Source: Candidatus Parcubacteria bacterium (GTDB lineage Bacteria > Patescibacteriota > Minisyncoccia > Phycocordibacterales > CAIZLB01). From it: 64,000 nucleotides of DNA. Of this stretch, positions 3,656 to 63,511 are shown in pieces. The stretch lies in assembly GCA_039795875.1 (NCBI GenBank), contig JBDKKY010000001.1:750-64749 (forward strand), read 5' to 3'. How positions within the stretch are numbered: the stretch's first letter is position 1; every line of letters starts with the position of its first letter. The notes beneath the pieces were generated by a model. It did not search any database, was not told the DNA's origin, and saw nothing but the letters and a program-made list of their open reading frames with translations. The position numbers and the translations under genes were made by a program.

Positions 3656-6364
3656 CTAGTCTACATCTTCAACCAGAGCCTTGACAGTGTGAGAGCTCTT
3701 GATCTTGCTCTTATGTCCCGCTGATTTGATTTCAAATTTCATTTCATTGTTCTTATCCATGTCGATAACCACCCTCGCTCCACTTTTTATACCTTCAGTG
3801 ATCATCATAGACGCCAACGGTGTCAACACCTTAGTCTGAATCAATCGTCGAAGCGGTCGCGCTCCATATTGAGGGTTGTATCCTTCTTTGGCTAGATACT
3901 CATACACTGGATCTTTAAGTTCCAGAGTAATCTCTTTCTCAGTCAATCGAGCTTGAACTTTCTTAACTTCAATATCGACGATCTTACGTATGGCTTCTGG
4001 TTTCAAGACGTCGAACAGAATGATCTCATCAAGTCGGTTCAAGAATTCTGGTCGGAAATAATCTTTGAGACTTTCCATAACTTTTTCTTTAACATCATCG
4101 TATGATTGAGAGTCATCATTTGAAGTTGAGAAACCAATATTTTTCATCTTATCGATGTATTGAGCACCAATGTTCGAGGTCATGATAATGATTGTATTTT
4201 TAAAATTCACTGTTCGGCCTTTTGAATCAGTCAATCGTCCGTTATCAAGGACTTGCAAAAGAATATTGAAAATATCTGGGTGAGCTTTTTCAATCTCATC
4301 AAAGAGAATCACTGAGTACGGTCGGTGTTTTACTTTATCAACCAAGTTTCCAGATGTATCATCGTGACCAACATAACCTGGAGGTGCTCCGATAATCTTA
4401 GAGACTGAATGTCTCTCGGCAAATTCAGACATATCAACTCGGATCAATGATTTTTCATTTTCAAACATAAAGTCAGCCAAAGCTTTAGTAAGCTCTGTCT
4501 TTCCTACTCCGGTTGGTCCAAGAAAAATGAACGAGCCAATAGGTCGGAGGGGATCGTGAATACCAACCCGTGATCGTTTGATAGTATCAGAAACTTTTTT
4601 AACCGCCTCATCTTGCCCAACAACTTGGGCTTTAAGAACTTCTTCCATGCGTCCAAGTTTTTTAACCTCTTCTTCAAGCATACGGGTTACAGGAACTCCG
4701 GTCCATCGCGCAACAACCTGAGCGATATCTGCCTCGTTGATCTCTTCTTTCAGAACTCGTTTATTGCTGTCCATTTTTCGAAGTTTCTTCAATCGAGCCT
4801 CTAGGTCTTTTTCCAACATTGGCAATTTGCCATAACGAATCTCAGCCGCTTTTCCAAGATCAGCACGTGCTTCCGCACGCTCCGCCTCTTGCCGAAGAGT
4901 TTCTAGATTTTTCTTAATCTCTTTGATGCTATTCAAAGCATCTCGTTCTGACTGCCATTTGGCCTCTGTATCTTTGATGCCATCTTTGACATCAGCAATA
5001 TTTAACTCTAGTTCCTTGATACGCTCTTTAGTGGCTTTATTTTCAGGATCTTTGAGCAATGCCTCTCGTTCGATCTCTAGGCGCATGATCTTTCGATGCG
5101 CGTCTTCAACCGCCTGTGGTTTATTTTCCAAAGAAATCTTAAGAGATGAGGCCGCTTCATCGATCAGGTCAACGGCTTTATCTGGCAATTGTCTATCCGT
5201 AATATATCGTGCGGAAAGTGATACCGCTGCAACAATAGCTTCATCGAGTATTCGTACACCGTGGAACAATTCGTATTTGTCTTTCAATCCTCGCAAAATC
5301 GCTGTTGCATCTTCCAATGTTGGCTCCTGAACATACACAGGTTGAAAACGTCTCTGCAGGGCAGGATCTTTTTCGATGTGTTTTTGATATTCTCGTAGAG
5401 TGGTCGCACCGATAGCGCGAAGCTCTCCGCGTGCCAGTGCAGGCTTCAACATATTTGAAGCATCAAGAGATCCTTCTGTTCCACCAGCACCCATGATGGT
5501 GTGTGTCTCATCGATAAACATGATGATCTTACCGTCGGCCTTCTCAACTTCTTTTAAAATATTTTTTAAGCGATCTTCGAATTCTCCTCGATACTTAGTG
5601 CCTGCAACCAGCGACCCCATATCAAGTGACAACAGTTCTTTGTCCTTCAATGATTCTGGAATATCCCCCATGGCGATACGATTGGCCAATCCTTCGACAA
5701 TGGCTGTTTTACCGACTCCAGCTTCTCCAAGAAGTATCGGATTATTTTTTGTTCGCCGTGAAAGGATCTGAATCACTCGTGAGATCTCTGCATCTCGTCC
5801 GATCACTGGATCAAGTTTGTGCTCACGTGCAAGTGCAGTTAAGTTTCGGGTATATTTTGTTAAAACTTTGGCTTTCTTTGCATCTGTTTGTTGACCACCA
5901 GACGTACCGTTAGTTTTTTGAGATTTGATCAATTCCAAAGTCTCAATACATTTTTCTTTATCAATTTTAAATTTCTCGATCAATTCTCGTCCAGGATTGA
6001 GCGAGTCAAAAAAGGCAATGAAGAGATGCTCCACTGAAACAAAGTTGTCTTTTACTAAAGCTGAGACGGCACCTGAGGCTTCGATGATCGCAGCAAGTTC
6101 TGGTGTTAGGAAAAGTTGATACGCCGGGCTCAGTGTGTTTGAGGCCTCAGTTGAATCGATGGCTTCGAAAGCGTTGTCGGCCATCAAGATAAAATCAACC
6201 TCCATCTTTTCAAGCAGAGTGGTAACCAGAGTGTCTTCTTGGGTCAAGAGTGAGGCTAGGAGGTGCATTGGCTGGACATTTGTTTGTCCTCGTTCTATGG
6301 CCAATTCGTGGGCTCGACGAATAGCCTCCTTGGCTCTCGTAGTGAAGTGATTTAAGGGTAACAT
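3656..6364 (-). CDS. clpB: ATP-dependent chaperone ClpB (Hsp100)
   Basis: 902 aa; Clp N domain, two AAA+ modules ([15 protein letters not shown] and [15 protein letters not shown] Walker A motifs) and a long middle coiled coil. Confidence 0.95.
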
Positions 6365-10338: not shown

Positions 10339-10680
10339 ATGAAGAAAACTAACAACGCACGAAGCAAAGAAGTCACTCGAGGACGAGGAACATCAATTGT
10401 TCGACAACTGCTCGATCAATATATTTCTCGTAACTCTGGTGGACAATCATTGATCACCATCACATCACTTGAACAAGCTGATCGAAGCAACAACATGATG
10501 GTCCGTGTTTCTGTTTTACCTGAGACTCAGGAAAAAGCAGTGATCGATTTTCTACAACGACATGCGACTGAGATGCGAAATTATATTAAGGAAAATTCAG
10601 CCTTGGGCATGCTACCCTTTCTGTCTTTTGAAATTGATCAAGGTGAAAAACATAGACAAAGCATTTTTGAGATTATCTAG
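10339..10680 (+). CDS. rbfA: ribosome-binding factor A
   Basis: 113 aa directly downstream of infB in the conserved infB-rbfA order; RbfA-like pattern (ITITSLEQADRSNNMMVRVSVL ... LPFLSFEID). Confidence 0.7.
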   Translation: MKKTNNARSKEVTRGRGTSIVRQLLDQYISRNSGGQSLITITSLEQADRSNNMMVRVSVLPETQEKAVIDFLQRHATEMRNYIKENSALGMLPFLSFEIDQGEKHRQSIFEII

Positions 10681-10723
10681 CATCCGTGCTATATTGGCTC
10701 TGTGGTAGATCTATGCCTATATT

Positions 10724-10797
10724 GGCGCAGTGGCGAAGTGGCCCAACGCGGCAGTTTGCAAAACTGATATTCGCCGGTTCGACTCCGGCCTGCGCCT
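10724..10797 (+). tRNA. tRNA-Cys (GCA)
   Basis: GGCGCAG/CTGCGCC acceptor, anticodon loop TTGCAAA, T-arm GCCGG-TTCGACT-CCGGC. Confidence 0.8.
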
Positions 10798-10803
10798 CCC
10801 AAC

Positions 10804-10886
10804 GCCTTGGTGGTGGAATGGTAGACACGAGAGACTTAAAATCTCTTGGTAGCAATACCGTGCGGGTTCGAGTCCCGCCCTCGGCA
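10804..10886 (+). tRNA. tRNA-Leu (TAA), long variable arm
   Basis: GCCTTGGTGGTGGAATGGTAGACACG 5' half typical of tRNA-Leu, anticodon arm AGAGA-CTTAAAA-TCTCT, long variable arm, T-arm GCGGG-TTCGAGT-CCCGC. Confidence 0.8.
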
Positions 10887-10890
10887 CAAT

Positions 10891-10930
10891 AAACATAAAA
10901 GCATCCTTCGGGGTGCTTTTATGTTTATTG
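10891..10930 (+). terminator. intrinsic terminator after tRNA-Leu
   Basis: near-perfect hairpin AAACATAAAAGCATCC-TTCG-GGGTGCTTTTATGTTT with a TTCG tetraloop and U-rich tail. Confidence 0.75.
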
Positions 10931-11076
10931 CCAGAGGGACGGGACGAGAAAGCCGGAACCCTGTTGCCATGTCCCAACGGGACGGCAACAAGTGAGGCGG
11001 GGCTGCGCAAAAATTGCGCAGCAATTTTATGTGTAGCCGAGCCCCTCCCTAGCCTTGTAAGGGTCGAGTCCCACCA

Positions 11077-11105
11077 TTGACTCCTCGAACTACTAGTTAT
11101 ATAAT
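11077..11105 (+). promoter_or_regulatory. consensus sigma70 promoter TTGACT-17 nt-TATAAT
   Basis: exact -35 and -10 consensus with a 17-nt spacer, inside the GC-rich island. Confidence 0.5.
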
Positions 11106-11129
11106 ACCGATGGGCACGTGCCCCTACCT

Positions 11130-11276
11130 ATGAGACCCCTAACCGTCCTGTTCTTCCTCGCCCTTATCTGGACCGTCAACCGACACAACAACTCCAGCAA
11201 AAAGAGCCATCCGCCTACTGTAACCACCGAAACAGTAACGGCAGGAGCATCCATCCCCAACCCTGATCAGAAATAA
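11130..11276 (+). CDS. putative 48-aa single-TM peptide
   Basis: hand-translated MRPLTVLFFLALIWTVNRHNNSSKKSHPPTVTTETVTAGASIPNPDQK; downstream of the consensus promoter; GC-rich. Confidence 0.25.
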   Translation: MRPLTVLFFLALIWTVNRHNNSSKKSHPPTVTTETVTAGASIPNPDQK

Positions 11277-11472
11277 CACTGGTCAGAACCTTCCATCACC
11301 TGCAGCCTTGCTGCATGAGTGATTGGGAGGATTTTTTTTATTTGGGCCTTATTTTAAAAGATTATTTACCCTTTTAATCTCACTCGAGTCCTTGACTTTT
11401 ATACATATATATTATAGGATGATACACGAGCTTATTTGAAGGCTTTAAACCTTCCAGAACCATAAGCTCACC

Positions 11473-11739
11473 TTGAAAACGCAAAAAATGAACACCAACC
11501 GCATCGCAATTGGGCTTTGTCTGCTCGGAGCGATTGGCGTCCTTCATTGGGCCGCCACTCATCCAGCCGATAAAGCATCACCGGACACGGCCGTCACCAC
11601 GACATCTGCGCCCAAAAAAACCAAAACCCATAACCCGGGAGTCGTAGCGCAGCTGGAGGGTCACGCCTCCTTCAACCAAACTGCCCCCACAAAACTCGAA
11701 GTCAAACCCGAAATCACCATCCACCCCATCTCCCAGTAA
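11473..11739 (+). CDS. small secreted protein (signal peptide) in the GC-rich island
   Basis: 88 aa; N-terminal hydrophobic segment IAIGLCLLGAIGVL; about 58% GC. Confidence 0.45.
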   Translation: MKTQKMNTNRIAIGLCLLGAIGVLHWAATHPADKASPDTAVTTTSAPKKTKTHNPGVVAQLEGHASFNQTAPTKLEVKPEITIHPISQ

Positions 11740-11742
11740 AAC

Positions 11743-12949
11743 ATGAAAACCATCCTACACTTCTTCATCCTGCTCATCCTCATCACCACCAGCTTCGGCC
11801 AGGTCATCCCCGGCGCCGCACCACCGGTGCCGGCCGGGTTCCCTGCACAAATCCCAGCCTCCTTCGAGGAGGCATGGGACGCAGCGATCACCCGCTCCAC
11901 GACCTACCGTCGCCACATCGGCAGCAACCCTGGCGGTGAAGGTGAGCTGACAGTCATCGGTGGTGGTGCACAGAATCTCGTCGCCATCCTCACTACGCCA
12001 GGAACAATGGACACCATCGACAATGCGACAACGCTCGACAACGCGTACTTCCGGTTGGCCGACGAAAGGACAACCGTGTACGTCTCACGCACCATCACCG
12101 ATGGCGACGGGTTCAGTACGTTCGAATCGTACAGCTCGTTCCAGTTGGAAAAAATCGAGGGACCGGTCGTTATCGGACAGCCCGTCCTGTCACAGCCCAC
12201 GTATCGCATCCCGGAATGGGCCCGGGCAGTCGGATACAACCTGTCCTACTATACGCCTATCCCCTTGCCGGACAATGTGAACAATGCCGAGGTCATCACG
12301 TATGATCCAGAGCGCCCCTGGCACGTCGAAACACATGAGATGCCCATCATCCGGCACGGAGCCAAGACGTTCGTGATGATGGAAAATTGGATCTACGGAG
12401 ATCCAGAACTGCTGAAAAACTCAGTTCTGGTCATCCATACAGACACGGATCCTGTTCGCTACGACTTCGGAGATGGCGGACAGATCTCGAAGCGCCGGAC
12501 CTCTCCGGTTGGCATCGCACCGACTCGCGTCGAATGGAATGGCGGAAAAAAAAATCCGCATCCCTTACACGACCGGGGAACTGGCCCCAGTTGAAGAAAC
12601 TATCTTTCGCTACGGCGAAGAAGGTCAGTTCCTCGAAAACGTCGTGTATGACATCGCCATGACCAACGCGCCGGCAAACAGCTTCAAGATCTTGAGGTTT
12701 CGTGTGCTCGGTCAGTGGGGCAACGGCGGTGTAGCACCTACCGCGCTCCGCATCGTCACCCGCAACAGTGCAGGTGTGGTGGTCGAGAATGCCACGGAAC
12801 CGTTGAGTATCAACTCGGACCTCTGGTTCCGGGTCATCCTACGCAGTAGCGCATCATCCTGCCGCGTCTGGGCTATCTGGCCCGACGGCATCACAACCAC
12901 CAACGGCCAACAGTATGGCCGTCCGACCATGACGGAGAAAGGAAACTAA
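11743..12949 (+). pseudogene. secreted protein gene broken by a frameshift at an A9 tract (track ORFs 11743..12594 and 12473..12949)
   Basis: signal peptide MKTILHFFILLILITTSFG; frames join exactly at GGCGG-AAAAAAAAA-TCCGC (12546-12554); removing one A gives a continuous ~402-aa ORF (...VEWNGGKK|IRIPYTTGELAPVEE...). Confidence 0.5.
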
Positions 12950-12989
12950 CCCTCCGTCATATCCAACCCGAACTTTTAACCCCTAACCA

Positions 12990-13033
12990 CCCGCTCGCAC
13001 AGACCCAACTGTGCGCGCGGGATTTTTTATTTA
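12990..13033 (+). terminator. intrinsic terminator ending the GC-rich island
   Basis: CCCGCTCGCACAG-acccaa-CTGTGCGCGCGGG then ATTTTTTATTTA. Confidence 0.7.
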
Positions 13034-13036
13034 TAT

Positions 13037-13480
13037 TTACTCAAACACCACCAAAAACTCCACCCCCTCATGCCACATTACATTCCACGGATATGGGGTT
13101 ATAGTCTTACCCTCTCCCTTTCCTTCTCGTATCACTACCGCTTCTAGTCCTGGATCAGCGATGAAAGCCCTCTCGCCTAAAGCCACCGTCCTGGTTCCGT
13201 CAATCAGTTCCTTATGATCAATCTCAAATGACACCAACTCTTCAGCTGTCGCAGCTCGTGCAATCATATCATCATGCGCCAATCCATTTATACTTTTTAG
13301 TGCATCATCTGAAGTAATAGGCTTGTTTGGGCGCCACACATATCCTTTTTTCTTACCAATAACATGTGAGGAAAAATTCTTGGAATTTATTTCAGGCAAC
13401 ATTAACTCTACATCAAACCCAGCTTCTTTTATTTTCTCTTCAAATGAAGAATCGGTAACTTCAAAGTCGTATATTTGCAT
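13037..13480 (-). CDS. hypothetical protein (147 aa)
   Basis: intact ORF, baseline composition, no recognised motif. Confidence 0.5.
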   Translation of the reverse strand: MQIYDFEVTDSSFEEKIKEAGFDVELMLPEINSKNFSSHVIGKKKGYVWRPNKPITSDDALKSINGLAHDDMIARAATAEELVSFEIDHKELIDGTRTVALGERAFIADPGLEAVVIREGKGEGKTITPYPWNVMWHEGVEFLVVFE

Positions 13481-13487
13481 AAATCTA

Positions 13488-14651
13488 TTATAGCAATTTT
13501 TGATATACCTCCTCTATCCTATCCACCATGTGTCGCAAGGTAAACTTTTCTGGAAACGAAGATTTACTCAATGTCATCTTTCTGATCTTCTTAGCATTTA
13601 AAAAATCTATAATCTTTTCTGTTAAAAACTTGGCGGAACCTGGAGGCACCAACGGTGCAGCAGCGTATTGCTCGATCTCCGGGATACCACCAACCCGTGT
13701 AGCGATAAAGGGAACTTTAGCCAACATCATCTCAAGTAGGGCATATGGAAAACCTTCTTTAACAGACGGCATGACAAATAGATCAAACGCTTTGGCATAT
13801 CGATATGCATCAGGGATAGCTCCAACTAAAAAGAATATTGTTCCGAGATCCAATTCTTTGATCTGTTGTTCTAATTCTTGCCGCAATTCACCTTCACCAA
13901 TCACTACAAAGATAGTATTGTCCAGACCTTTGTATCGTCGTGCCAGATATGCTGCTTGTATCAGATGCGTCACACCTTTGGCCGAATACAGATTGGCCAC
14001 CAGTCCAATCATACGCACAGTCTGTGGCAAAGCGATTCCCATTTTTCTATATATCACTTCTCGAGCGTCGTTCCGCTCCAAAATCTTATCAACATTTTGC
14101 TCATTGATTCCATTGTAAATAACGGCACCTTTTTTCTTTGGAATAATGTGCATGTGCCGACCAACATCAAAATCGAATTTGGAAACGGTGATTGTAAAAT
14201 TTCTAAAGAAGCGTGAAATAAACTCTGACAGAATATAAAAATATCTTTTCAGTTTCGACATCGGTTCTGTGAAAACAAAACCATGAACTGTATAGACAAC
14301 CTTGGCCCCAGCTAATTTGGCAGCAACAGCGCAGACCGAACCAGCCTTAGAACTATGCAGATGTACAATCTCGGGACGAATCGATCTGACCAACTTAATT
14401 GTTTCTAAACCAGCTTTGATATCTCTCCAAAAACTAACAGAACGACTCAGATTTTTAATCATTCGCAATTGGTGGCCTTGAAAACCGTGAACTTTCAGTT
14501 CTCCAAATAGCCAAGCATCTTGCGGACCTTCTTGAATCCCAGTCGCCACATACGTTTGATGTCCTTTGCTTTGTAGACCAACAATAACATCACGCACATG
14601 GGCTTGAGCTCCTCCCCTTTCACCTTGAGTAATGATATGAAGAATTTTCAT
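13488..14651 (-). CDS. glycosyltransferase family 4 (GT-B fold)
   Basis: N-terminal MKILHIITQGERGGAQAHV and a C-terminal EGFPYALLEMMLAKVPFIATRVGGIPE motif typical of GT4/RfaB-like enzymes. Confidence 0.8.
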   Translation of the reverse strand: MKILHIITQGERGGAQAHVRDVIVGLQSKGHQTYVATGIQEGPQDAWLFGELKVHGFQGHQLRMIKNLSRSVSFWRDIKAGLETIKLVRSIRPEIVHLHSSKAGSVCAVAAKLAGAKVVYTVHGFVFTEPMSKLKRYFYILSEFISRFFRNFTITVSKFDFDVGRHMHIIPKKKGAVIYNGINEQNVDKILERNDAREVIYRKMGIALPQTVRMIGLVANLYSAKGVTHLIQAAYLARRYKGLDNTIFVVIGEGELRQELEQQIKELDLGTIFFLVGAIPDAYRYAKAFDLFVMPSVKEGFPYALLEMMLAKVPFIATRVGGIPEIEQYAAAPLVPPGSAKFLTEKIIDFLNAKKIRKMTLSKSSFPEKFTLRHMVDRIEEVYQKLL

Positions 14652-18622: not shown

Positions 18623-19615
18623 TTAGTCACTATCTTCGTCATCCACAATTATTTCACCACCATTTTCAAAATACGTCACAACTTCATTTATCATCTTATC
18701 AATCTGACCTTGGAAAATAGTCTGGATACCATGCCATGATTGTTTAAGTCGATGATCTGTTACTCGATCTTGCAATACGTTATATGTTCGAATCTTTTCT
18801 GATCTATCTCCAGTTCCCAACTGAGACTTTTTCAAACCTGAAAACTTGGCCATGTCTTCCTCTTCTTTTTTAAGCGCAAGCTTGGCCTGCAAAATAGACA
18901 TAGCTTTTTCTCGGTTCTTCAGCTGACTTCGCTCCGATGTACAACGCACATCAATACCGGTTGGCTTGTGAATCAAACGCACAGCCGTTTCCACTTTGTT
19001 CACATTTTGTCCTCCAGCTCCACCTGATCGGGAGAATTCCATCTCTAGATCCGCCGGATTGATCTCAAACTTAACTCTTTTTCGGATCGGTAGTACTGCT
19101 ACAACCGCAGTTGACGTGTGCACTCGCCCTGACTTTTCTGTAGAAGGGATTCGCTGAATTCGATGTACACCGATCTCATATCTAAAAAATCTATACACTT
19201 CAAGACCACGGACCTCGAAGGCCGCCTCTTTATATCCACCGATACCGTTTTCAGAAATATCGACGGTCGAAAAGTTCCAACCTCTCTGCTCAGCCCAGAT
19301 CTTGTACATCTCTGACAGATCAGCCGCAAACAAGGCCGCTTCTTCTCCACCAACTCCGGCTCGGATCTCAAGCACGATCTCATTTGGATAGGCATCAGCA
19401 ACCTCTTCTTCTTTGACGATATCTTTGATCTTGGCCACAACTGCCTCCATCTGCTCATCAATGCCCTTCATGTCACCTTCGGCCATCTCTTTCATCTCAG
19501 GATCTTTCATCATGTCCAAAAGAGACTCCTTTTCTTTTTGGAGTCGCTCCAATTCGCCGACAAAAAAGCTTGTCTTAAAATCTTTCTTTAATTCTTCTAG
19601 GTTTAGATCTTCCAT
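18623..19615 (-). CDS. prfA: peptide chain release factor 1
   Basis: GGQ motif ([16 protein letters not shown]) and PST tripeptide (the PxT motif of RF1) in [14 protein letters not shown]. Confidence 0.85.
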
Positions 19616-19936: not shown

Positions 19937-21280
19937 TTAATTCGTAATTAAATCAATATCAGCTTGTAACTTAAGGGCATGGGCCATAACTGAGTTTCCA
20001 TAGCTGGTATTTCCACTCACAGAGCCGCAGGCTTTGCCCGAATAGTATCGACAGGCCGCGTTTCGCTCAGCAGAGGCAGTCTGAGCACTAGCTCCAAGAT
20101 CCGCTACATAGAGAGCTGTCGCAGTGAAGGCATCTTGCGCATTCCAAGGGTTGGCTGTGCCCCCTCCCCCTCTGGCAGACACCACTCGAGCGGCGAACAT
20201 TTCCCATGTCGAAGGAATGAACTGTGATGGCCCCATAGCGCCTCCATATCCGATAGACAAAGGACAAGAAACGCGAGTTTTATATGGATCTTTGCCTAGG
20301 GCTTTGGTGATTCGCAAGAAAGGCTGAACATCTCGTGAAGGCTTCATCACGTTGGCCACAGCTTTGCCTGAGTTCGCCCCTACCCCTGCTCCTGTATCAG
20401 CGTCAGACAGATAACATGAACCGAGATTTGATCCGATATTGGTTTCTTGTTTCAAAATACCGAGAATAAATGCAGGCCGTACACCCGTGGCCGCTCCGGC
20501 GGCTTTGGCATATTTTACCGCATCCTCGAACTTGATAGAACCTGAGTCACGCAAAGCGAACAGTGCGTTCTTGATTTCATTTACTTTCTTTTGCTTTTCA
20601 TTGATCACCACATTGTACTCAGCTTTTTCTTTATTTTTTAAATTCAACAACCTCTGTTTTTCGGCCTCAGCTTTTTCTACAACTTTCTTTTTTTCTTCGA
20701 TTTGATATTTGGTATCATACTCTTCATTTCGTTTTTGGCCGAGAGAATCTTTTTCTTTTTCTTCGTCTTGCTTATCTTTATTGATATAACCGATCTCGTC
20801 TTTGATACGTGATTGTATGGATGTATATGCATCCATGTCTTGGAAAAAAGCTGACATCTCTTGCTGTGCCAGTAAGGCCTCAACCATAGTGTAGTTGTCT
20901 AACTCATAACTAGCCCGAATAATCTCAGCCAAACCCTCTCTACTGCGCACAATTCTACCCTGGAGAGTATTGATGTTTTTCTCTTTAGTGGTGATGTCTT
21001 TACCCAACTTGGCAATAGAAAGCTCTCGAGCTTTGATCTGTAGTTTGGCCTGCTGAATCTCAATCTCTAGGAGTTTCTTATCACGAGAAATAGAAGCCGC
21101 TTCACTTTCTAGCTTGCCGGTCTGAGTCTTTAAGCCAGCAATCTCAGCCTCGATCTTAGCCAATTCGGCCAGACAAGAGTCACGGTTCTCCGGTAAGTTA
21201 CAATCTAGAGACTGGGCACTAGCGAAAGTGAAAGCGGAAAAGATTGCAACAGCAAAGCCAATGGAAAAGACATATTTCAT
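19937..21280 (-). CDS. secreted coiled-coil protein with a C-terminal MltB-like lytic transglycosylase domain
   Basis: signal peptide, long coiled coil, then GAMGPSQFIPSTW (the GAMGQxQFMPS motif of the lytic murein transglycosylase B family). Confidence 0.6.
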   Translation of the reverse strand: MKYVFSIGFAVAIFSAFTFASAQSLDCNLPENRDSCLAELAKIEAEIAGLKTQTGKLESEAASISRDKKLLEIEIQQAKLQIKARELSIAKLGKDITTKEKNINTLQGRIVRSREGLAEIIRASYELDNYTMVEALLAQQEMSAFFQDMDAYTSIQSRIKDEIGYINKDKQDEEKEKDSLGQKRNEEYDTKYQIEEKKKVVEKAEAEKQRLLNLKNKEKAEYNVVINEKQKKVNEIKNALFALRDSGSIKFEDAVKYAKAAGAATGVRPAFILGILKQETNIGSNLGSCYLSDADTGAGVGANSGKAVANVMKPSRDVQPFLRITKALGKDPYKTRVSCPLSIGYGGAMGPSQFIPSTWEMFAARVVSARGGGGTANPWNAQDAFTATALYVADLGASAQTASAERNAACRYYSGKACGSVSGNTSYGNSVMAHALKLQADIDLITN

Positions 21281-25364: not shown

Positions 25365-25370
25365 GTCATG

Positions 25371-25443
25371 TGCGCATGCTTGGGTTCGAACCAAGGACCT
25401 TTCGAGTATCAGTCGAATGCTCTACCAACTGAGCTACACGCGC
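25371..25443 (-). tRNA. tRNA-Ile (GAT)
   Basis: GCGCGTG acceptor, anticodon arm TTCGA-CTGATAC-TCGAA, T-arm CTTGG-TTCGAAC-CCAAG. Confidence 0.85.
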
Positions 25444-25669: not shown

Positions 25670-26272
25670 TTATTTAGCAACAGCTTTTTGTACGAAGAAC
25701 TTACCAGCGTCCTCCATTTCTGTCAAAGACTCACAGGCATTTGTTCCAGACAATCGGCCTGCATTTGTAGCAGTTGCCTTACCTCGTAGCTTAGGGTCAG
25801 ACTCTGTCGAACTTACAAGTTCACCCAATGAACCATATGTGTCAACTCGCTTCTTAATATACATCTCAACCGCAGTACGTGATTCTGCCCCACTGTCGGC
25901 AACAAAGACTTTGGTGTCTGATTTTGCGGGGAATGCCGGAGCTGACGCCGCATCTGTATACCAGGCAAATGTACATGAAGTATTTCTCTGTACTATGGCT
26001 GATCTACTATAATTACAAGCTGAACGCTCCATACATCCATCTCCACCTTGTCCTGGGACGTATCTACCTTGTCCTGGGACATATCCACCTTTTGTGACAT
26101 CACCTGATACAGCGCCTGCTGTAGGAGTTGTTGCAGTAGTAGGGTTATTTATCAATACTGCCTTAGTTGTGGCGGCTTGATTATCTTTATTGCTAATCGA
26201 TGTGCGTACACTGTAGACAATTGACGCTACAATAATTGCCAAAAGAACAACAATAGTTAATGTTTTTTTCAT
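25670..26272 (-). CDS. hypothetical signal-anchored secreted protein encoded in the 16S/tRNA-Ile spacer
   Basis: 200 aa; N-terminal TM LTIVVLLAIIVASIVY; contains a 21-nt tandem duplication encoding YVPGQG RYVPGQG. Confidence 0.5.
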   Translation of the reverse strand: MKKTLTIVVLLAIIVASIVYSVRTSISNKDNQAATTKAVLINNPTTATTPTAGAVSGDVTKGGYVPGQGRYVPGQGGDGCMERSACNYSRSAIVQRNTSCTFAWYTDAASAPAFPAKSDTKVFVADSGAESRTAVEMYIKKRVDTYGSLGELVSSTESDPKLRGKATATNAGRLSGTNACESLTEMEDAGKFFVQKAVAK

Positions 26273-26566: not shown

Positions 26567-28110
<1,544 letters not shown>

Positions 28111-35849: not shown

Positions 35850-36059
35850 ATAGGTACATTATATCATCACTGCACAATCGCCCCAAGCAGGATCATGGCG
35901 GTGGTAACAATCGCCAGGAAACCGAGGATAAATTTAATTGCAGTTGAATCAAGCATGTTGAGATTATAACAAAAAAAACAGAAAACCGCCCGAAGGCGGT
36001 TTTCTGCAATTTTTTGAATTTAGGTTAGAGATCTAGCTCTTAAACTAATCTGTTGAGGA

Positions 36060-41741: not shown

Positions 41742-42863
41742 ATGCAAAAGAAAAAAAATACTACTAAACCGAAAAACCAAAAAGAAAGAGAAGACGATGA
41801 CAAACTAGAACTAGAAGAGGTAGAAGGTCAGAGTTCCGGCGCTAAGAAAAAAGGCGTCGGCAGTCGAGGTGACGATCAAGGTGTTAACATCAGCGACACT
41901 ATTGCCGAGATCAAGAGTCGTTTTGGAGACGAATCAATCATGAAGCTTGGGGAAAAACCCAAAGTTGATGTTGATGTTGTTCCGACCGGATCTATTGGAC
42001 TAGATGCAGCACTCGGTGTAGGTGGGCTACCTCGAGGAAGAATCATCGAGATCTTCGGACCAGAATCATCTGGTAAGACAACTCTTGCCCTTCATGTCAT
42101 CGCTGAAGCTCAAAAGAAGAATGGTATCTGCGCCTTCATCGATGCTGAACACTCACTGGATCCTGATTATGCTCAGAGACTTGGAGTAAAGATCGACAAT
42201 CTCCTACTCTCTCAACCAGATGCAGGCGAGCAAGCTCTTGAGATTGTTGAGAGCCTCGTTCGAAGTGGAAAGATCGATGTTATTGTTATCGACTCAGTTG
42301 CTGCTCTAACACCTAAAGACGAGATCGAGGGTGATATGGGCGCTCAACACATGGGTAAGCAAGCACGACTTATGTCTCAGGCTTTGCGAAAACTTACTGC
42401 TATCGTAGCCAAGAGTAAAACTATTGTTATCTTTATCAACCAGATCCGTATGCAAATCGGTGTGATGTTTGGTAACCCTGAAACAACACCAGGAGGAAAA
42501 GCGCTTAAGTTCTACACATCTATTCGACTCGACATTCGACGTATTGCTCAGATCAAGAAAGGAGAAGATGTTATGGGAGGACGCGTACGAGTAAAAGTGG
42601 TAAAGAACAAAGTCGCTGCACCATTCCGTCAAACAGAATTCGACCTTATGTACAACGAAGGTATTTCTCTAGAAGGAGAGATGATCGCTCTTGGAGAAAA
42701 AATGAAACTTATACAAAAGAGCGGTTCATCCTATGCATATGGCGATATAAAACTCGGCCGTGGCTATGACGCAACTCGACAATTTTTGAAAGATAAAGAA
42801 AATAAGGACATCAAGGCCAAGATCTTGAAAGAGATTCGTGAAGGTCTTAAGAATGCAGCGTAG
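41742..42863 (+). CDS. recA: recombinase RecA (with a ~45-aa lysine/acidic N-terminal extension)
   Basis: [13 protein letters not shown] Walker A, loops L1/L2, strong end-to-end RecA identity. Confidence 0.97.
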
Positions 42864-56713: not shown

Positions 56714-57220
56714 TTAGGGCTTAGAGCCCTCGGCAATAAGCACATGAATGGCCTCAAATACATCCCTAAACTGGCCATCGTACTTGTTTTCCAACTCGTC
56801 TATCTTTTCTTTAAGTTCAGCATGGGTCAGGAGGAGTTCTCGGAGTTTGGTGAATGTTCTCATGATCTGAATGTTGACCTGTATGGCTCTATCGCTACGA
56901 AGGACACTCGAGAGCATAGCTATGCCTTGTTCGGTGAAGGCAAACGTCGGTCGTTTACGCGTCTTATTTCCAATCCTTACGATCACAAATTGTGATCGTA
57001 AGGATAACCGATCCGAATTATCTAATTTAAACATGAAATCTAAAGGAAATCTGTGAATATTTCTCTTCACTGCTTGGTTTAAGGTTCTAGGCTCAACGCC
57101 ATATAAAATAGCCAGCTCAATGTCCAGCATGACTTTTTGAGCTCTCACAATGTAAATCTTTGTCTGTATAGATTCTGGAATGATTATTAAAGCATTAGAT
57201 TGTTTCTGTTCTTTTGGCAT
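56714..57220 (-). CDS. ORF6N-domain (KilA-N-related) DNA-binding protein
   Basis: VRAQKVMLDIELAILYGVEPRTLNQAVKRNIHRFPLDFMFKL...LRSQF...FAFTEQGIAMLSSVLRSDRAIQVNIQIMRTF matches the ORF6N pattern. Confidence 0.75.
   Translation of the reverse strand: MPKEQKQSNALIIIPESIQTKIYIVRAQKVMLDIELAILYGVEPRTLNQAVKRNIHRFPLDFMFKLDNSDRLSLRSQFVIVRIGNKTRKRPTFAFTEQGIAMLSSVLRSDRAIQVNIQIMRTFTKLRELLLTHAELKEKIDELENKYDGQFRDVFEAIHVLIAEGSKP
56974..57004. promoter_or_regulatory. 31-nt perfect palindrome TCCTTACGATCACA-AAT-TGTGATCGTAAGGA inside the ORF6N CDS
   Basis: read directly; it encodes SLRSQFVIVR of the ORF6N protein. Confidence 0.6.
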
Positions 57221-63421: not shown

Positions 63422-63424
63422 ATG

Positions 63425-63511
63425 CGGAGGATGTGAGATTCGAACTCACGGGGCAGTTTCCCACCCGACAGTTTAGTAAACTGTTGATTTAAACCACTCA
63501 TCCAATCCTCC
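63425..63511 (-). tRNA. class II (long variable arm) tRNA, Ser-like, with apparent anticodon ACT
   Basis: GGAGGAT/ATCCTCC acceptor, 3-bp D-stem, anticodon arm ACAGT-TTACTAA-ACTGT, long variable arm, T-arm GTGAG-TTCGAAT-CTCAC. Confidence 0.65.

What the first reader, a model, noticed from the sequence alone, without database searches (positions are those of the whole stretch)
12546..12554. A9 homopolymer splits a ~400-aa secreted protein gene into two overlapping ORFs
Track ORFs 11743..12594 and 12473..12949 overlap across GGCGG-AAAAAAAAA-TCCGC. Removing one A fuses them seamlessly (…VEWNGGKK | IRIPYTTGELAPVEETIF…). This is either a homopolymer sequencing error, a slipped-strand phase-variable contingency locus (it encodes a surface/secreted protein), or an RNA polymerase slippage site, since A9 runs are known slippage substrates.
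Basis: partly seen in the sequence, partly recalled or inferred. Interest (0 to 1): 0.55.

Follow-up and report, generated by a model that had tools for sequence, protein, structure and literature searches.

The report
One extra A splits secreted-protein gene
A run of nine A's, where related bacteria have eight, breaks one gene for a roughly 400-residue secreted protein of an uncultivated Parcubacteria bacterium into two annotated "hypothetical proteins"; it looks most like the off state of a slippery on/off tract of the kind known in Mycoplasma, but a sequencing error cannot be excluded without the reads.

Summary
A9 lies at 12546-12554, ORFs 11743..12594 and 12473..12949 overlap it, and deleting one A gives a 401-aa protein with a signal peptide.

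An intact 414-aa orthologue sits in the same gene neighbourhood (62% identity, 98% coverage). It reads GGT GGA AAA AAA ATC with A8 in frame, identically in three samples. A third orthologue also has A8. So this is one gene carrying a +1 A.

The tract codes Gly-Lys-Lys-Ile at the first strand of a C-terminal beta-sandwich domain, just after a low-confidence linker. The downstream domain shows no decay (dN/dS about 0.11, no extra lesions). This is the only split gene in 64 kb.

The longest run of identical codons in every pairwise comparison lies exactly on the tract. Given codon usage, the probability that all three keep A8 or longer is 0.0036. The third orthologue is independently interrupted at the same junction by a stop codon plus a 57-nt insertion.

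Best reading (about 0.45): a recent, real slipped-strand insertion in a conserved mutable tract. That would be the truncated/OFF state, as in Mycoplasma hominis vaa, possibly leaky through RNA polymerase slippage. Consensus error is about 0.3. Obligatory programmed recoding is not supported, and -1 frameshifting is excluded by frame arithmetic. No reads were available. This is a new member of a known kind, of moderate interest.

The parts
11392..11420 (+). Promoter-like site TTGACT-17-TAGGAT in front of the two-gene cassette
   Evidence: Found by the promoter scan. The same TTGACT box is present upstream of the cassette in L001, L005 and L007.
11421..11487 (+). Leader of about 67 nt with the hairpin GAAGGCTTTAAACCTTC. 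It is unusual in a genome whose genes mostly lack leaders.
   Evidence: By eye, the promoter-plus-leader stretch printed differs at only a few positions between the window and L007, although the proteins it precedes are 34% identical. No Rfam family matches. Most other genes have a -10 box directly upstream of the ATG.
11488..11739 (+). Small upstream ORF (83 aa from ATG 11488) with one hydrophobic N-terminal segment. It is conserved and likely co-transcribed, since its stop lies 3 nt before the target's ATG.
   Evidence: Sequence and ORF list. Homologues lie upstream of the target gene in L001, L005 and L007 at 36-48% identity. GC3 is 0.61, like the target.
11743..12594 (+). N-terminal ORF, annotated RJB39_14 (283 aa). 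It comprises a signal peptide, a beta-rich N-domain, a linker and 13 out-of-frame residues (NPHPLHDRGTGPS) after the tract.
   Evidence: It aligns with residues 1-275 of the intact orthologue P0002.
11743..11799 (+). Predicted Sec signal peptide MKTILHFFILLILITTSFG|Q
   Evidence: Read from the sequence: basic N-terminus, 14-residue hydrophobic core, and small residues at -3/-1. An equivalent A-x-A|Q site is present in P0002, P0003 and P0005. No predictor was run.
12546..12554 (+). A9 tract. The in-frame state in orthologues is A8, reading GGA AAA AAA ATC (Gly-Lys-Lys-Ile).
   Evidence: window. A8 in L001, L002 and L003 and in L004. Synonymous conservation peaks here.
12542..12559 (+). Small hairpin GCGGA / UCCGC with the A-run as its loop
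   Evidence: Fold energy is -7.7 kcal/mol with z=-3.5 in the window, but only z=-1.1 in L001. The single substitution in the stem (C to U in L001) keeps pairing as G-U. The arms are dictated by the Gly-Gly and Ile-Arg codons, so selection for the hairpin is not shown.
12539..12949 (+). C-terminal ORF as annotated (RJB39_15, 136 aa, MAEKKIRIPY...). From 12554 on it is the in-frame continuation of the gene and encodes an autonomous beta-sandwich domain.
   Evidence: The AF2 model of this domain alone has pLDDT 78 and pTM 0.71, with nine strands, the first being residues 2-9. It is 74% identical to P0002. dN/dS is 0.11.
12567..12641 (+). Strong stem-loop starting 12 nt downstream of the tract, seen only in the window
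   Evidence: The 121-nt segment folds at -45 kcal/mol with z=-4.7. The structure is not conserved in L001 or L004. It ranks about 20th among distinct structured sites in the window. It is probably not part of the mechanism.
12990..13032 (+). Intrinsic terminator of the cassette: CCCGCTCGCACAG-loop-CTGTGCGCGCGGG followed by a T-run
   Evidence: Read from the sequence. An equivalent hairpin plus T-run follows the gene in L001 and L004. The simple terminator scan missed it.

Best explanation
The two ORFs are one gene for a secreted, all-beta, two-domain protein of about 400 aa, found only in a small group of Parcubacteria. The poly(A) run encodes Gly-Lys-Lys-Ile at the first strand of the C-terminal beta-sandwich domain, directly after a linker. 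Its in-frame length is A8. The window has one extra A, so translation stops 13 codons later and yields a secreted N-domain without its C-domain. I think the extra A is most likely a real and recent replication-slippage insertion in a conserved, mutable tract. That would make it the truncated/OFF state of a reversible A8/A9 switch, as in the Mycoplasma hominis vaa adhesin. Some full-length protein may still be made, because A9 is long enough for RNA polymerase slippage (transcripts with A8 or A11 restore the frame). Shown: the single-gene ancestry, A8 in frame in relatives, the position at a domain boundary, the lack of decay downstream, and tract conservation above the codon-usage expectation. 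Inferred: that A9 is in the DNA rather than a consensus error, that it is reversible, that it is adaptive, and that expression is leaky.
For: An intact syntenic orthologue, P0002 (414 aa), has GGT GGA AAA AAA ATC. Its sequence is identical in three independent assemblies. A third orthologue, L004, also has A8. The downstream domain is under purifying selection: dN/dS is 0.11-0.13, and the window's branch is the shortest of the three by my arithmetic from the pairwise dN values. It carries no further stops or indels. This is the only split gene found in the 64-kb window, so the assembly is not riddled with indel errors. The longest run of identical codons in the whole gene, in all three pairwise comparisons, is G-K-K-I-R-I-Y at the tract. 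Given each gene's codon usage, P(all three have A8 or longer) is 0.0036 and P(at least 6 of 7 codon columns identical) is 0.0012. An empirical binomial gives 0.003-0.007. The tract follows a low-confidence linker (P0002 residues 257-276), and the Lys-Lys pair lies in the first strand of an autonomously folding C-domain. L004 is independently interrupted at the same junction by a TAA stop plus a 57-nt insertion. The gene evolves much faster than its neighbours: 62% and 34% identity against about 80-89% for the flanking genes in equidistant genomes. That pattern is expected for an exposed protein under diversifying selection. Precedents: M. hominis vaa is ON at A8 and OFF at A7 or A9, switching at 1e-3 to 1e-4 (PMC524362). 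Nine A/T is the usual threshold for transcriptional slippage (PMC1088944). Poly(A) frameshifts in endosymbiont genes are held to be rescued by slippage (PMC3017870).
Against: There is no read-level or population data. This strain occurs once in the collections, and neither the A8 nor the A11 version of the protein exists anywhere in them. The sister species shows A8 in 3 of 3 assemblies, so no length variation is seen at consensus level. There are only three tract-bearing orthologues. The permutation p-values assume independent synonymous sites; pS of 0.66-0.71 is near saturation but not proven to be saturated. Lys is AAA-biased in these genes and Ile and Arg use their major codons, so part of the conservation comes cheaply. 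A9 is also the most error-prone site in the window for any sequencing platform, and the platform is unknown. The surface location and function of the protein are unknown.
Confidence: 0.45

Rival explanations
1. Sequencing or consensus error. The organism really has A8 and an intact 401-aa gene, and the extra A was introduced by homopolymer miscalling or by polishing during assembly of the MAG.
For: A9 is the longest homopolymer in the window and therefore the likeliest site for an indel error. Removing one A restores a perfect ORF whose junction matches the orthologues residue for residue. The downstream domain shows no decay. Relatives have A8. The platform is unknown and no second assembly of the strain exists.
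Against: No other gene in 64 kb is frameshifted, including at the A8 run at 41751 near the start of gene 41742..42863. That argues against an error-prone long-read-only assembly. From general knowledge, consensus errors at A9 are rare in short-read assemblies with normal coverage. An independent natural interruption at the same junction in L004 shows that truncation here does happen in nature.
Confidence: 0.3
2. Plain recent pseudogenisation. The +1 A is a real but non-adaptive and effectively irreversible loss-of-function mutation in a dispensable, fast-evolving gene. The tract is conserved only because of amino-acid and codon preferences.
For: The gene is lineage-specific, fast-evolving and absent from nearly all bacteria: only 5-6 sequences turn up among about 15 billion proteins. 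Another lineage (L004) also carries a disruption. Small symbiont-like genomes erode through homopolymer indels (PMC3017870).
Against: There is no second lesion and no relaxation of constraint in the window's C-domain branch. The tract is more conserved at synonymous sites than anywhere else in the gene. An A8/A9 run is mechanistically reversible at appreciable rates in comparable organisms (PMC524362).
Confidence: 0.13
3. Programmed recoding. The A9 genomic state is the normal one in this species. Full-length protein is made by programmed transcriptional slippage, or by +1/-2 ribosomal slippage on the A-run helped by the downstream stem-loop. This would set a fixed ratio of N-domain-only to full-length protein.
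For: A9 in the sense strand is a proven slippage motif (T. thermophilus dnaX and IS elements; PMC1088944). There is nucleotide-level conservation around the run. A strong stem-loop begins 12 nt downstream (z=-4.7).
Against: The frameshifted arrangement is not conserved, since relatives are in frame with A8. The stem-loop is specific to the window and is only about the 20th strongest structure in the window. A -1 ribosomal shift on A_AAA_AAA enters the wrong frame and gives an unconserved tail. The out-of-frame tails are not conserved in length or sequence; this last point is my reading of the sequences.
Confidence: 0.06
4. Functional gene fission. The N- and C-domains are made as two separate proteins, in the window from ATG 12539 and in L004 from its own ATG, and this two-gene form is selected.
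For: There are two independent splits at the same domain boundary. Each has an in-frame ATG a few codons upstream of GGKK/EKK. The L004 insertion carries TGGTAAAAT, which resembles an extended -10 box, ahead of its ATG. The C-domain folds on its own. C-domains are conserved in both split lineages.
Against: A separately made C-domain would lack a signal peptide and could not follow the secreted N-domain. The window's ATG is a by-product of the Asn-Gly codons (AAT GGN) and is present out of frame in L001 too. No promoter-like site lies upstream of it. All four more distant or intact homologues are single ORFs.
Confidence: 0.05

Closest known systems
Mycoplasma hominis vaa adhesin: phase variation by an intragenic poly(A) tract (Zhang & Wise 1997, as summarised in PMC524362)
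   Same: It is a small-genome, host-associated bacterium with a fast-evolving exported or surface protein. An A-run lies inside the ORF, A8 is in frame, and A9 is out of frame, giving a truncated product.
   Different: In vaa the tract is near the 5' end, so OFF means no protein. Here it lies two-thirds of the way along at a domain boundary, so OFF would still give a secreted N-domain. Switching has been measured for vaa and is not shown here. There is no sequence homology.
M. hominis vmp-2 / vmp-3 (PMC524362)
   Same: An extra adenine (9 versus 8) in a 3'-proximal poly(A) tract truncates one allele relative to the other. The gene sits in a divergent islet next to conserved genes.
   Different: That comparison is between alleles of strains of one cultured species. 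Here it is between species-level MAGs. The proteins are unrelated.
Poly(A)-tract frameshifts in Blochmannia and Buchnera genes rescued by transcriptional slippage (PMC3017870 and the references in it)
   Same: A single indel in an A-run of nine or more lies in an otherwise intact, non-degraded gene of a reduced genome. The same ambiguity applies between a recent lesion and slippage-corrected expression.
   Different: Those genomes are extremely AT-rich, with more than 100 such tracts each. Here the tract is the only one in a 57% GC gene. Rescue is demonstrated there and not here.
Programmed transcriptional slippage at A9 (Thermus thermophilus dnaX and many IS elements; PMC1088944)
   Same: Nine A's in the sense strand. 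Two products differing in their C-terminal part are possible from one gene.
   Different: In those cases the out-of-frame or dual-product arrangement is conserved among homologues. Here the homologues are in frame with A8.

Membership tests
Phase-variable (contingency) gene with an intragenic homopolymeric tract | An uninterrupted homopolymer inside the ORF, long enough for frequent slipped-strand indels (A/T of about 8 or more) | tested here: met
   A9 at 12546-12554. A8 at the homologous codons in L001-L003 and L004.
Phase-variable (contingency) gene with an intragenic homopolymeric tract | Tract length differs between cells or strains, toggling the reading frame | tested here: inconclusive
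   A8 (in frame) versus A9 (out of frame) is seen between species-level relatives. The three assemblies of the sister species all show A8. There are no reads and no second assembly of this strain.
Phase-variable (contingency) gene with an intragenic homopolymeric tract | High-frequency, reversible switching | not testable with these tools
   This needs read-level, amplicon or culture data.
Phase-variable (contingency) gene with an intragenic homopolymeric tract | The tract is retained across relatives more than coding needs require | tested here: met
   The longest identical-codon run in every pairwise comparison lies on the tract. Permutation gives P=0.0036 for A8 or longer in all three and P=0.0012 for the codon columns. 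The empirical estimate is 0.003-0.007. This rests on only three sequences and an assumption of independence.
Phase-variable (contingency) gene with an intragenic homopolymeric tract | The product is exposed (surface or secreted) and fast-evolving | tested here: met
   A conserved signal peptide with an A-x-A|Q-type site. Identity is 62% and 34% against 80-89% for the flanking genes. Surface attachment itself is not shown.
Programmed transcriptional slippage gene (dnaX of T. thermophilus, IS elements) | A run of about nine A or T in the coding strand | tested here: met
   A9. The threshold is given in PMC1088944.
Programmed transcriptional slippage gene (dnaX of T. thermophilus, IS elements) | An ORF organisation that requires slippage is conserved among homologues | tested here: not met
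   P0002 and L004 read through the tract in frame with A8. The distant homologues have no tract.
Programmed transcriptional slippage gene (dnaX of T. thermophilus, IS elements) | A heterogeneous number of A's in the mRNA | not testable with these tools
   This needs a metatranscriptome or a reporter assay.
-1 programmed ribosomal frameshift (A_AAA_AAA plus a downstream structure) | A -1 shift on the heptamer enters the downstream ORF | tested here: not met
   The conserved frame needs +1 or -2. A -1 shift gives ...GGKKKSASLTRPGNW..., which ends after 36 further residues and is not conserved.
-1 programmed ribosomal frameshift (A_AAA_AAA plus a downstream structure) | A conserved stimulatory structure 5-9 nt downstream | tested here: not met
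   The stem-loop starts 12 nt downstream, occurs only in the window and is absent from L001 and L004.
Decaying pseudogene | The ORF is disrupted relative to orthologues | tested here: met
Decaying pseudogene | Relaxed constraint or additional lesions downstream | tested here: not met
   For the C-domain, dN/dS is 0.11 and the window's branch is the shortest of the three (my arithmetic from the pairwise dN values). There are no stops or indels in 133 codons.

The most novel reading that the evidence does not exclude
The A8/A9 run, with its flanking GCGGA/UCCGC arms, is a selected switch placed exactly at a domain boundary. It would decide whether a secreted N-domain carries its C-terminal beta-sandwich (putative binding) module. 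It sits in a hypervariable, compositionally deviant two-gene islet that is kept at the same chromosomal site across a Parcubacteria genus. That would be the first contingency locus described in the Candidate Phyla Radiation, and it would point to a protein at the interface between the symbiont and its host or its phages. The independent stop-plus-insertion split in a third lineage would be the hard-wired version of the same outcome.
Probability: 0.2. Interest if true: 0.6.

Novelty: new member of a known kind. Interest (0 to 1): 0.35.

Why it matters
In practical terms, RJB39_14 and RJB39_15 are one gene and should be annotated as a frameshifted gene or as a single gene. Biologically, if the extra A is real and reversible, it would show that ultrasmall Parcubacteria use the same cheap homopolymer switches on exported proteins as mycoplasmas and mucosal pathogens. 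My literature search found no report of this for Patescibacteria. It would also single out one orphan, fast-evolving secreted protein as a likely player at the cell surface or host interface. If it is an error, the case is a reminder that the longest homopolymer in a MAG contig is where false gene splits appear.

Tried and rejected
1. I looked for more relatives or other assemblies of this strain. Protein-pattern scans and an exact DNA-pattern scan (TGGAATGGYGGAAAAAAA N0-3 TCCGCATC) of genome contigs and metagenome contigs found nothing. A viral-contig scan found nothing. Exact look-ups of the A8 and A11 fused proteins, of the 158-aa ORF and of the small upstream ORF found nothing. RJB39_14 itself is not on record as a gene position.

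3. -1 ribosomal frameshifting was rejected on frame arithmetic.

4. The downstream stem-loop as a stimulator was rejected, because it is not conserved and not exceptional.

5. The small hairpin around the run is not significant in L001, and its arms are forced by the codons.

6. A Shine-Dalgarno argument for separate initiation of the C-domain was dropped, because this genome shows no SD motifs and mostly leaderless starts.

7. A diversity-generating retroelement or repeat-based variation was considered. No template-like repeats occur in 10600-13600.

8. I looked for other frameshifted genes as a proxy for assembly quality. None were found. The apparent overlap at 56714-56778 is explained by an internal start.

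Full report
OBSERVATION. The window reads GGCGG-AAAAAAAAA-TCCGC at 12541-12559, with the nine A's at 12546-12554. ORFs 11743..12594 (283 aa) and 12473..12949 (158 aa) lie on the + strand and overlap across the run. Deleting one A gives a 401-aa protein reading ...VEWNGGKK|IRIPYTTGEL.... A9 is the longest homopolymer in the 64 kb. One run of A9 or longer is not unusual for the window's base composition (0.43 expected), although only 0.002 is expected inside this 57% GC gene.

ONE GENE, NOT TWO. The fused protein finds two relatives among 5.8 billion clusters. One is the window's own N-terminal ORF, named 'MAG: hypothetical protein RJB39_14 [Candidatus Parcubacteria bacterium]'. The other is P0002, an intact 414-aa protein with 58% BLASTP identity over 98% of the query, or 62% in global alignments. 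P0002 is encoded on three contigs from three sequencing runs, in the same neighbourhood as in the window. That neighbourhood is tRNA-Leu, a small ORF, the target gene, and then a glycosyltransferase and a pseudouridine synthase on the opposite strand. At the homologous codons it reads GGT GGA AAA AAA ATC CGC, with A8 in frame, and the gene sequence is identical in all three contigs. An exhaustive HMMER search and a profile search added only four more sequences. P0006 is the window's C-terminal ORF as annotated (RJB39_15, 136 aa, from ATG 12539). P0004 is a 140-aa C-domain from a 755-bp contig. P0003, P0005 and P0007 are distant full-length homologues at 34-38% identity. The distant homologues have ...SRTQ(V/T)LRF... 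at the junction and no A-run. The ancestral state is therefore a single ORF. A8 is the in-frame state of the clade that has the tract, and the window carries a +1 A.

IS THE DOWNSTREAM PART DECAYING? Synonymous sites are near saturation (pS 0.66-0.71) and dN/dS is 0.11-0.16. Solving the three pairwise dN values of the C-domain for branch lengths (my arithmetic) gives about 0.06 for the window, 0.12 for L001 and 0.11 for L004. The window's C-domain is the least changed of the three, and it has no stop or indel in 133 codons. The lesion is therefore very recent, or not real, or bypassed.

IS THE ASSEMBLY ERROR-PRONE? An ORF map of the whole window shows dense coding and no other same-strand ORF pair that would fuse. 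The one suspicious overlap, at 56714-56778, is explained by an internal start. Of the other runs of eight or more, the T8 at 11332 and the A8 at 35971 are intergenic. The A8 at 41751 lies inside an intact gene. This argues against an unpolished long-read assembly. It cannot exclude a single consensus error at the longest homopolymer. The strain occurs once in the collections. RJB39_14 is not on record as a gene position. The A8 and A11 versions of the protein are absent from about 15 billion sequences. DNA and protein scans of the genome and metagenome collections returned nothing. The decisive test, read counts, could not be done.

IS THE TRACT ITSELF CONSERVED? Among columns with identical, degenerate amino acids, 47-51% of codons are identical between pairs. 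In each of the three pairwise comparisons, the longest run of identical codons in the entire gene is at the tract: GKKIRIYT (8 codons), GGKKIRI (7) and GKKIRIY (7). I drew synonymous codons from each gene's own codon pool. All three orthologues then have A8 or longer with P=0.0036, and at least 6 of the 7 codon columns GGKKIRI are identical in all three with P=0.0012. Empirically, only 28-34% of three-way conserved columns have identical codons, which gives a binomial P of 0.003-0.007 for this pre-specified site. The most conserved 24-nt window of the C-domain alignment is the junction. This is modest evidence (three sequences, independence assumed) that the nucleotide sequence is constrained, and not only the peptide. 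The flanking arms GCGGA/UCCGC can form a 5-bp hairpin with the A-run as its loop, and the only stem substitution keeps a G-U pair. However, the fold is not significant in L001, and the arms are dictated by Gly-Gly and Ile-Arg codons.

A SECOND, INDEPENDENT SPLIT AT THE SAME PLACE. Contig L004 begins with ...SPLQVAW, the end of the N-region (compare APLSVAW in P0002). It then has TAA and a further 54 nt, which together form an in-frame 57-nt insertion. The insertion contains TGGTAAAAT (extended -10-like) and an ATG. The sequence then continues GGC GGA AAA AAA ATC... with A8. Its C-domain is as conserved as the others. This may be a nonsense mutation in a longer linker or a true fission; I cannot tell which. 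Either way, it shows that nature has cut this protein between the same two domains at least once without any homopolymer change. That argues against dismissing the window's state as necessarily artefactual. There is an ascertainment caveat: the contig covers only this part of the gene.

CONTEXT. By the two flanking genes that can be compared in all three genomes, the window, L001 and L007 are equidistant (glycosyltransferase 79-80% in all pairs; pseudouridine synthase 85-89%). The target protein, in contrast, is 62% identical between the window and L001 and only 34% identical between either of them and L007. Two deeply divergent allele types therefore occupy one locus. The gene evolves much faster than its flanks, as expected for an exposed protein under diversifying selection or allelic exchange.

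MECHANISMS WEIGHED. Restoring the frame needs one A fewer or two more, which is a +1 or -2 shift. A -1 shift enters a third frame with an unconserved 36-residue tail, so the classic A_AAA_AAA -1 frameshift is excluded. A strong stem-loop starts 12 nt downstream (z=-4.7). It is absent from L001 and L004 and ranks only about 20th among structured sites in the window. Programmed transcriptional slippage requires a conserved out-of-frame arrangement, and relatives are in frame. Non-programmed slippage remains plausible. Nine A/T is the length at which selection against slippage becomes evident in many bacterial genomes, and T. thermophilus dnaX uses A9 (PMC1088944). Frameshifts in runs of nine or more A's in Blochmannia and Buchnera genes are regarded as transcriptionally rescued (PMC3017870). 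The closest precedent for a DNA-level switch is M. hominis vaa, which is ON at A8 and OFF at A7 or A9 and switches at 1e-3 to 1e-4. In the same locus, vmp-2 carries A9 where vmp-3 carries A8, which causes premature termination (PMC524362). Separate translation of the C-domain from ATG 12539 is unlikely to be meaningful. It would have no signal peptide. The ATG is a by-product of AAT GGN codons. No promoter-like site lies upstream. The genome has no SD motifs, and most genes start just downstream of a -10 box.

VERDICT. My weights are as follows. A real, recent slipped-strand +1 insertion in a conserved mutable tract (the truncated/OFF state, probably reversible and possibly leaky): about 0.45. 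Consensus error: about 0.30. Plain non-adaptive pseudogenisation: about 0.13. Programmed recoding: about 0.06. Functional fission: about 0.05. Nothing here is a new kind of mechanism. It would be a new member of the poly(A) phase-variation/slippage class in a phylum where I found no such report. Interest is moderate.

Noticed in passing
window 11100-13000; also L001 460-1704, L004 64-486, L005 492-1917, L007 3790-5214: The cassette (small ORFs plus the target gene) is a GC-rich and especially C3-rich islet in a 42% GC genome. GC3 is 0.57-0.70 (C3 0.37-0.46) in every orthologue, against 0.25-0.38 (C3 0.13-0.19) in the neighbours, including rpsB and tsf. The bias persists although synonymous sites are saturated, so it is maintained rather than a fresh import. 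No homologue exists outside this clade. I have no explanation.
   Followed up: partly
window 11743-12949 vs L001 and L007: The window, L001 and L007 are equidistant in the flanking glycosyltransferase and pseudouridine synthase (79-89% identity). They nevertheless carry two deeply divergent versions of the target protein at the same locus (62% versus 34% identity). This suggests ancient allele types or allelic exchange at a hypervariable site.
   Followed up: partly
window 11392-11487; L007 3699-3795: The promoter TTGACT-17-TAGGAT and a leader of about 67 nt with the hairpin GAAGGCTTTAAACCTTC are, by eye, nearly identical between the window and L007. The downstream proteins are only 34-48% identical. 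No Rfam family matches. This may be a regulatory leader.
   Followed up: partly
window 11077-11340: A near-consensus promoter (TTGACT-17-TATAAT, 11 of 12) drives a short transcript with an ORF of about 48-52 aa and one hydrophobic segment. It ends in a hairpin plus T8 at 11332. The 3' part is recognisable in L007.
   Followed up: no
window 10867-10950: A 40-nt inverted repeat (75% complementary) pairs the 3' end of tRNA-Leu(TAA) with the sequence just downstream. It is the most stable local fold in the window (-54 kcal/mol per 90 nt). The GC-rich islet starts right after it.
   Followed up: no
whole window, e.g. upstream of the genes at 3656-6364(-), 13037-13480(-), 18623-19615(-) and 19937-21280(-): No Shine-Dalgarno motifs are visible. 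Many genes have a TATAAT-like box 6-12 nt upstream of the ATG, which suggests largely leaderless mRNAs in this organism.
   Followed up: partly
window 63424-63511 (-): A tRNA-Ser is predicted with anticodon ACT (loop TTACTAA). An A34 is unusual in bacterial tRNAs other than tRNA-Arg(ACG).
   Followed up: partly
L004 22-78: A 57-nt in-frame insertion lies between the end of the N-region and GGKK. It begins with a TAA stop and contains TGGTAAAAT (extended -10-like), a short hairpin and an ATG. It is either a natural fission of the gene or a nonsense mutation in a longer linker.
   Followed up: partly
window 13037-13480 (-): An extra 147-aa ORF with native-like composition lies between the target gene and the glycosyltransferase. 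It is absent at this position in L001, L007 and L008, and has no family match.
   Followed up: no
window 12567-12641 (+): A stem-loop of about 21 bp lies inside the coding sequence (z=-4.7) and is not conserved in the orthologues. Other strongly structured stretches in the same gene are at 11791-11890 and 12091-12180.
   Followed up: yes
window 26568-28109 (-) and 25370-25443 (-): The 16S rRNA gene is separated from tRNA-Ile by a 200-aa ORF (25670-26272), and no 23S was found within the window. This points to an unlinked or interrupted rRNA operon.
   Followed up: no
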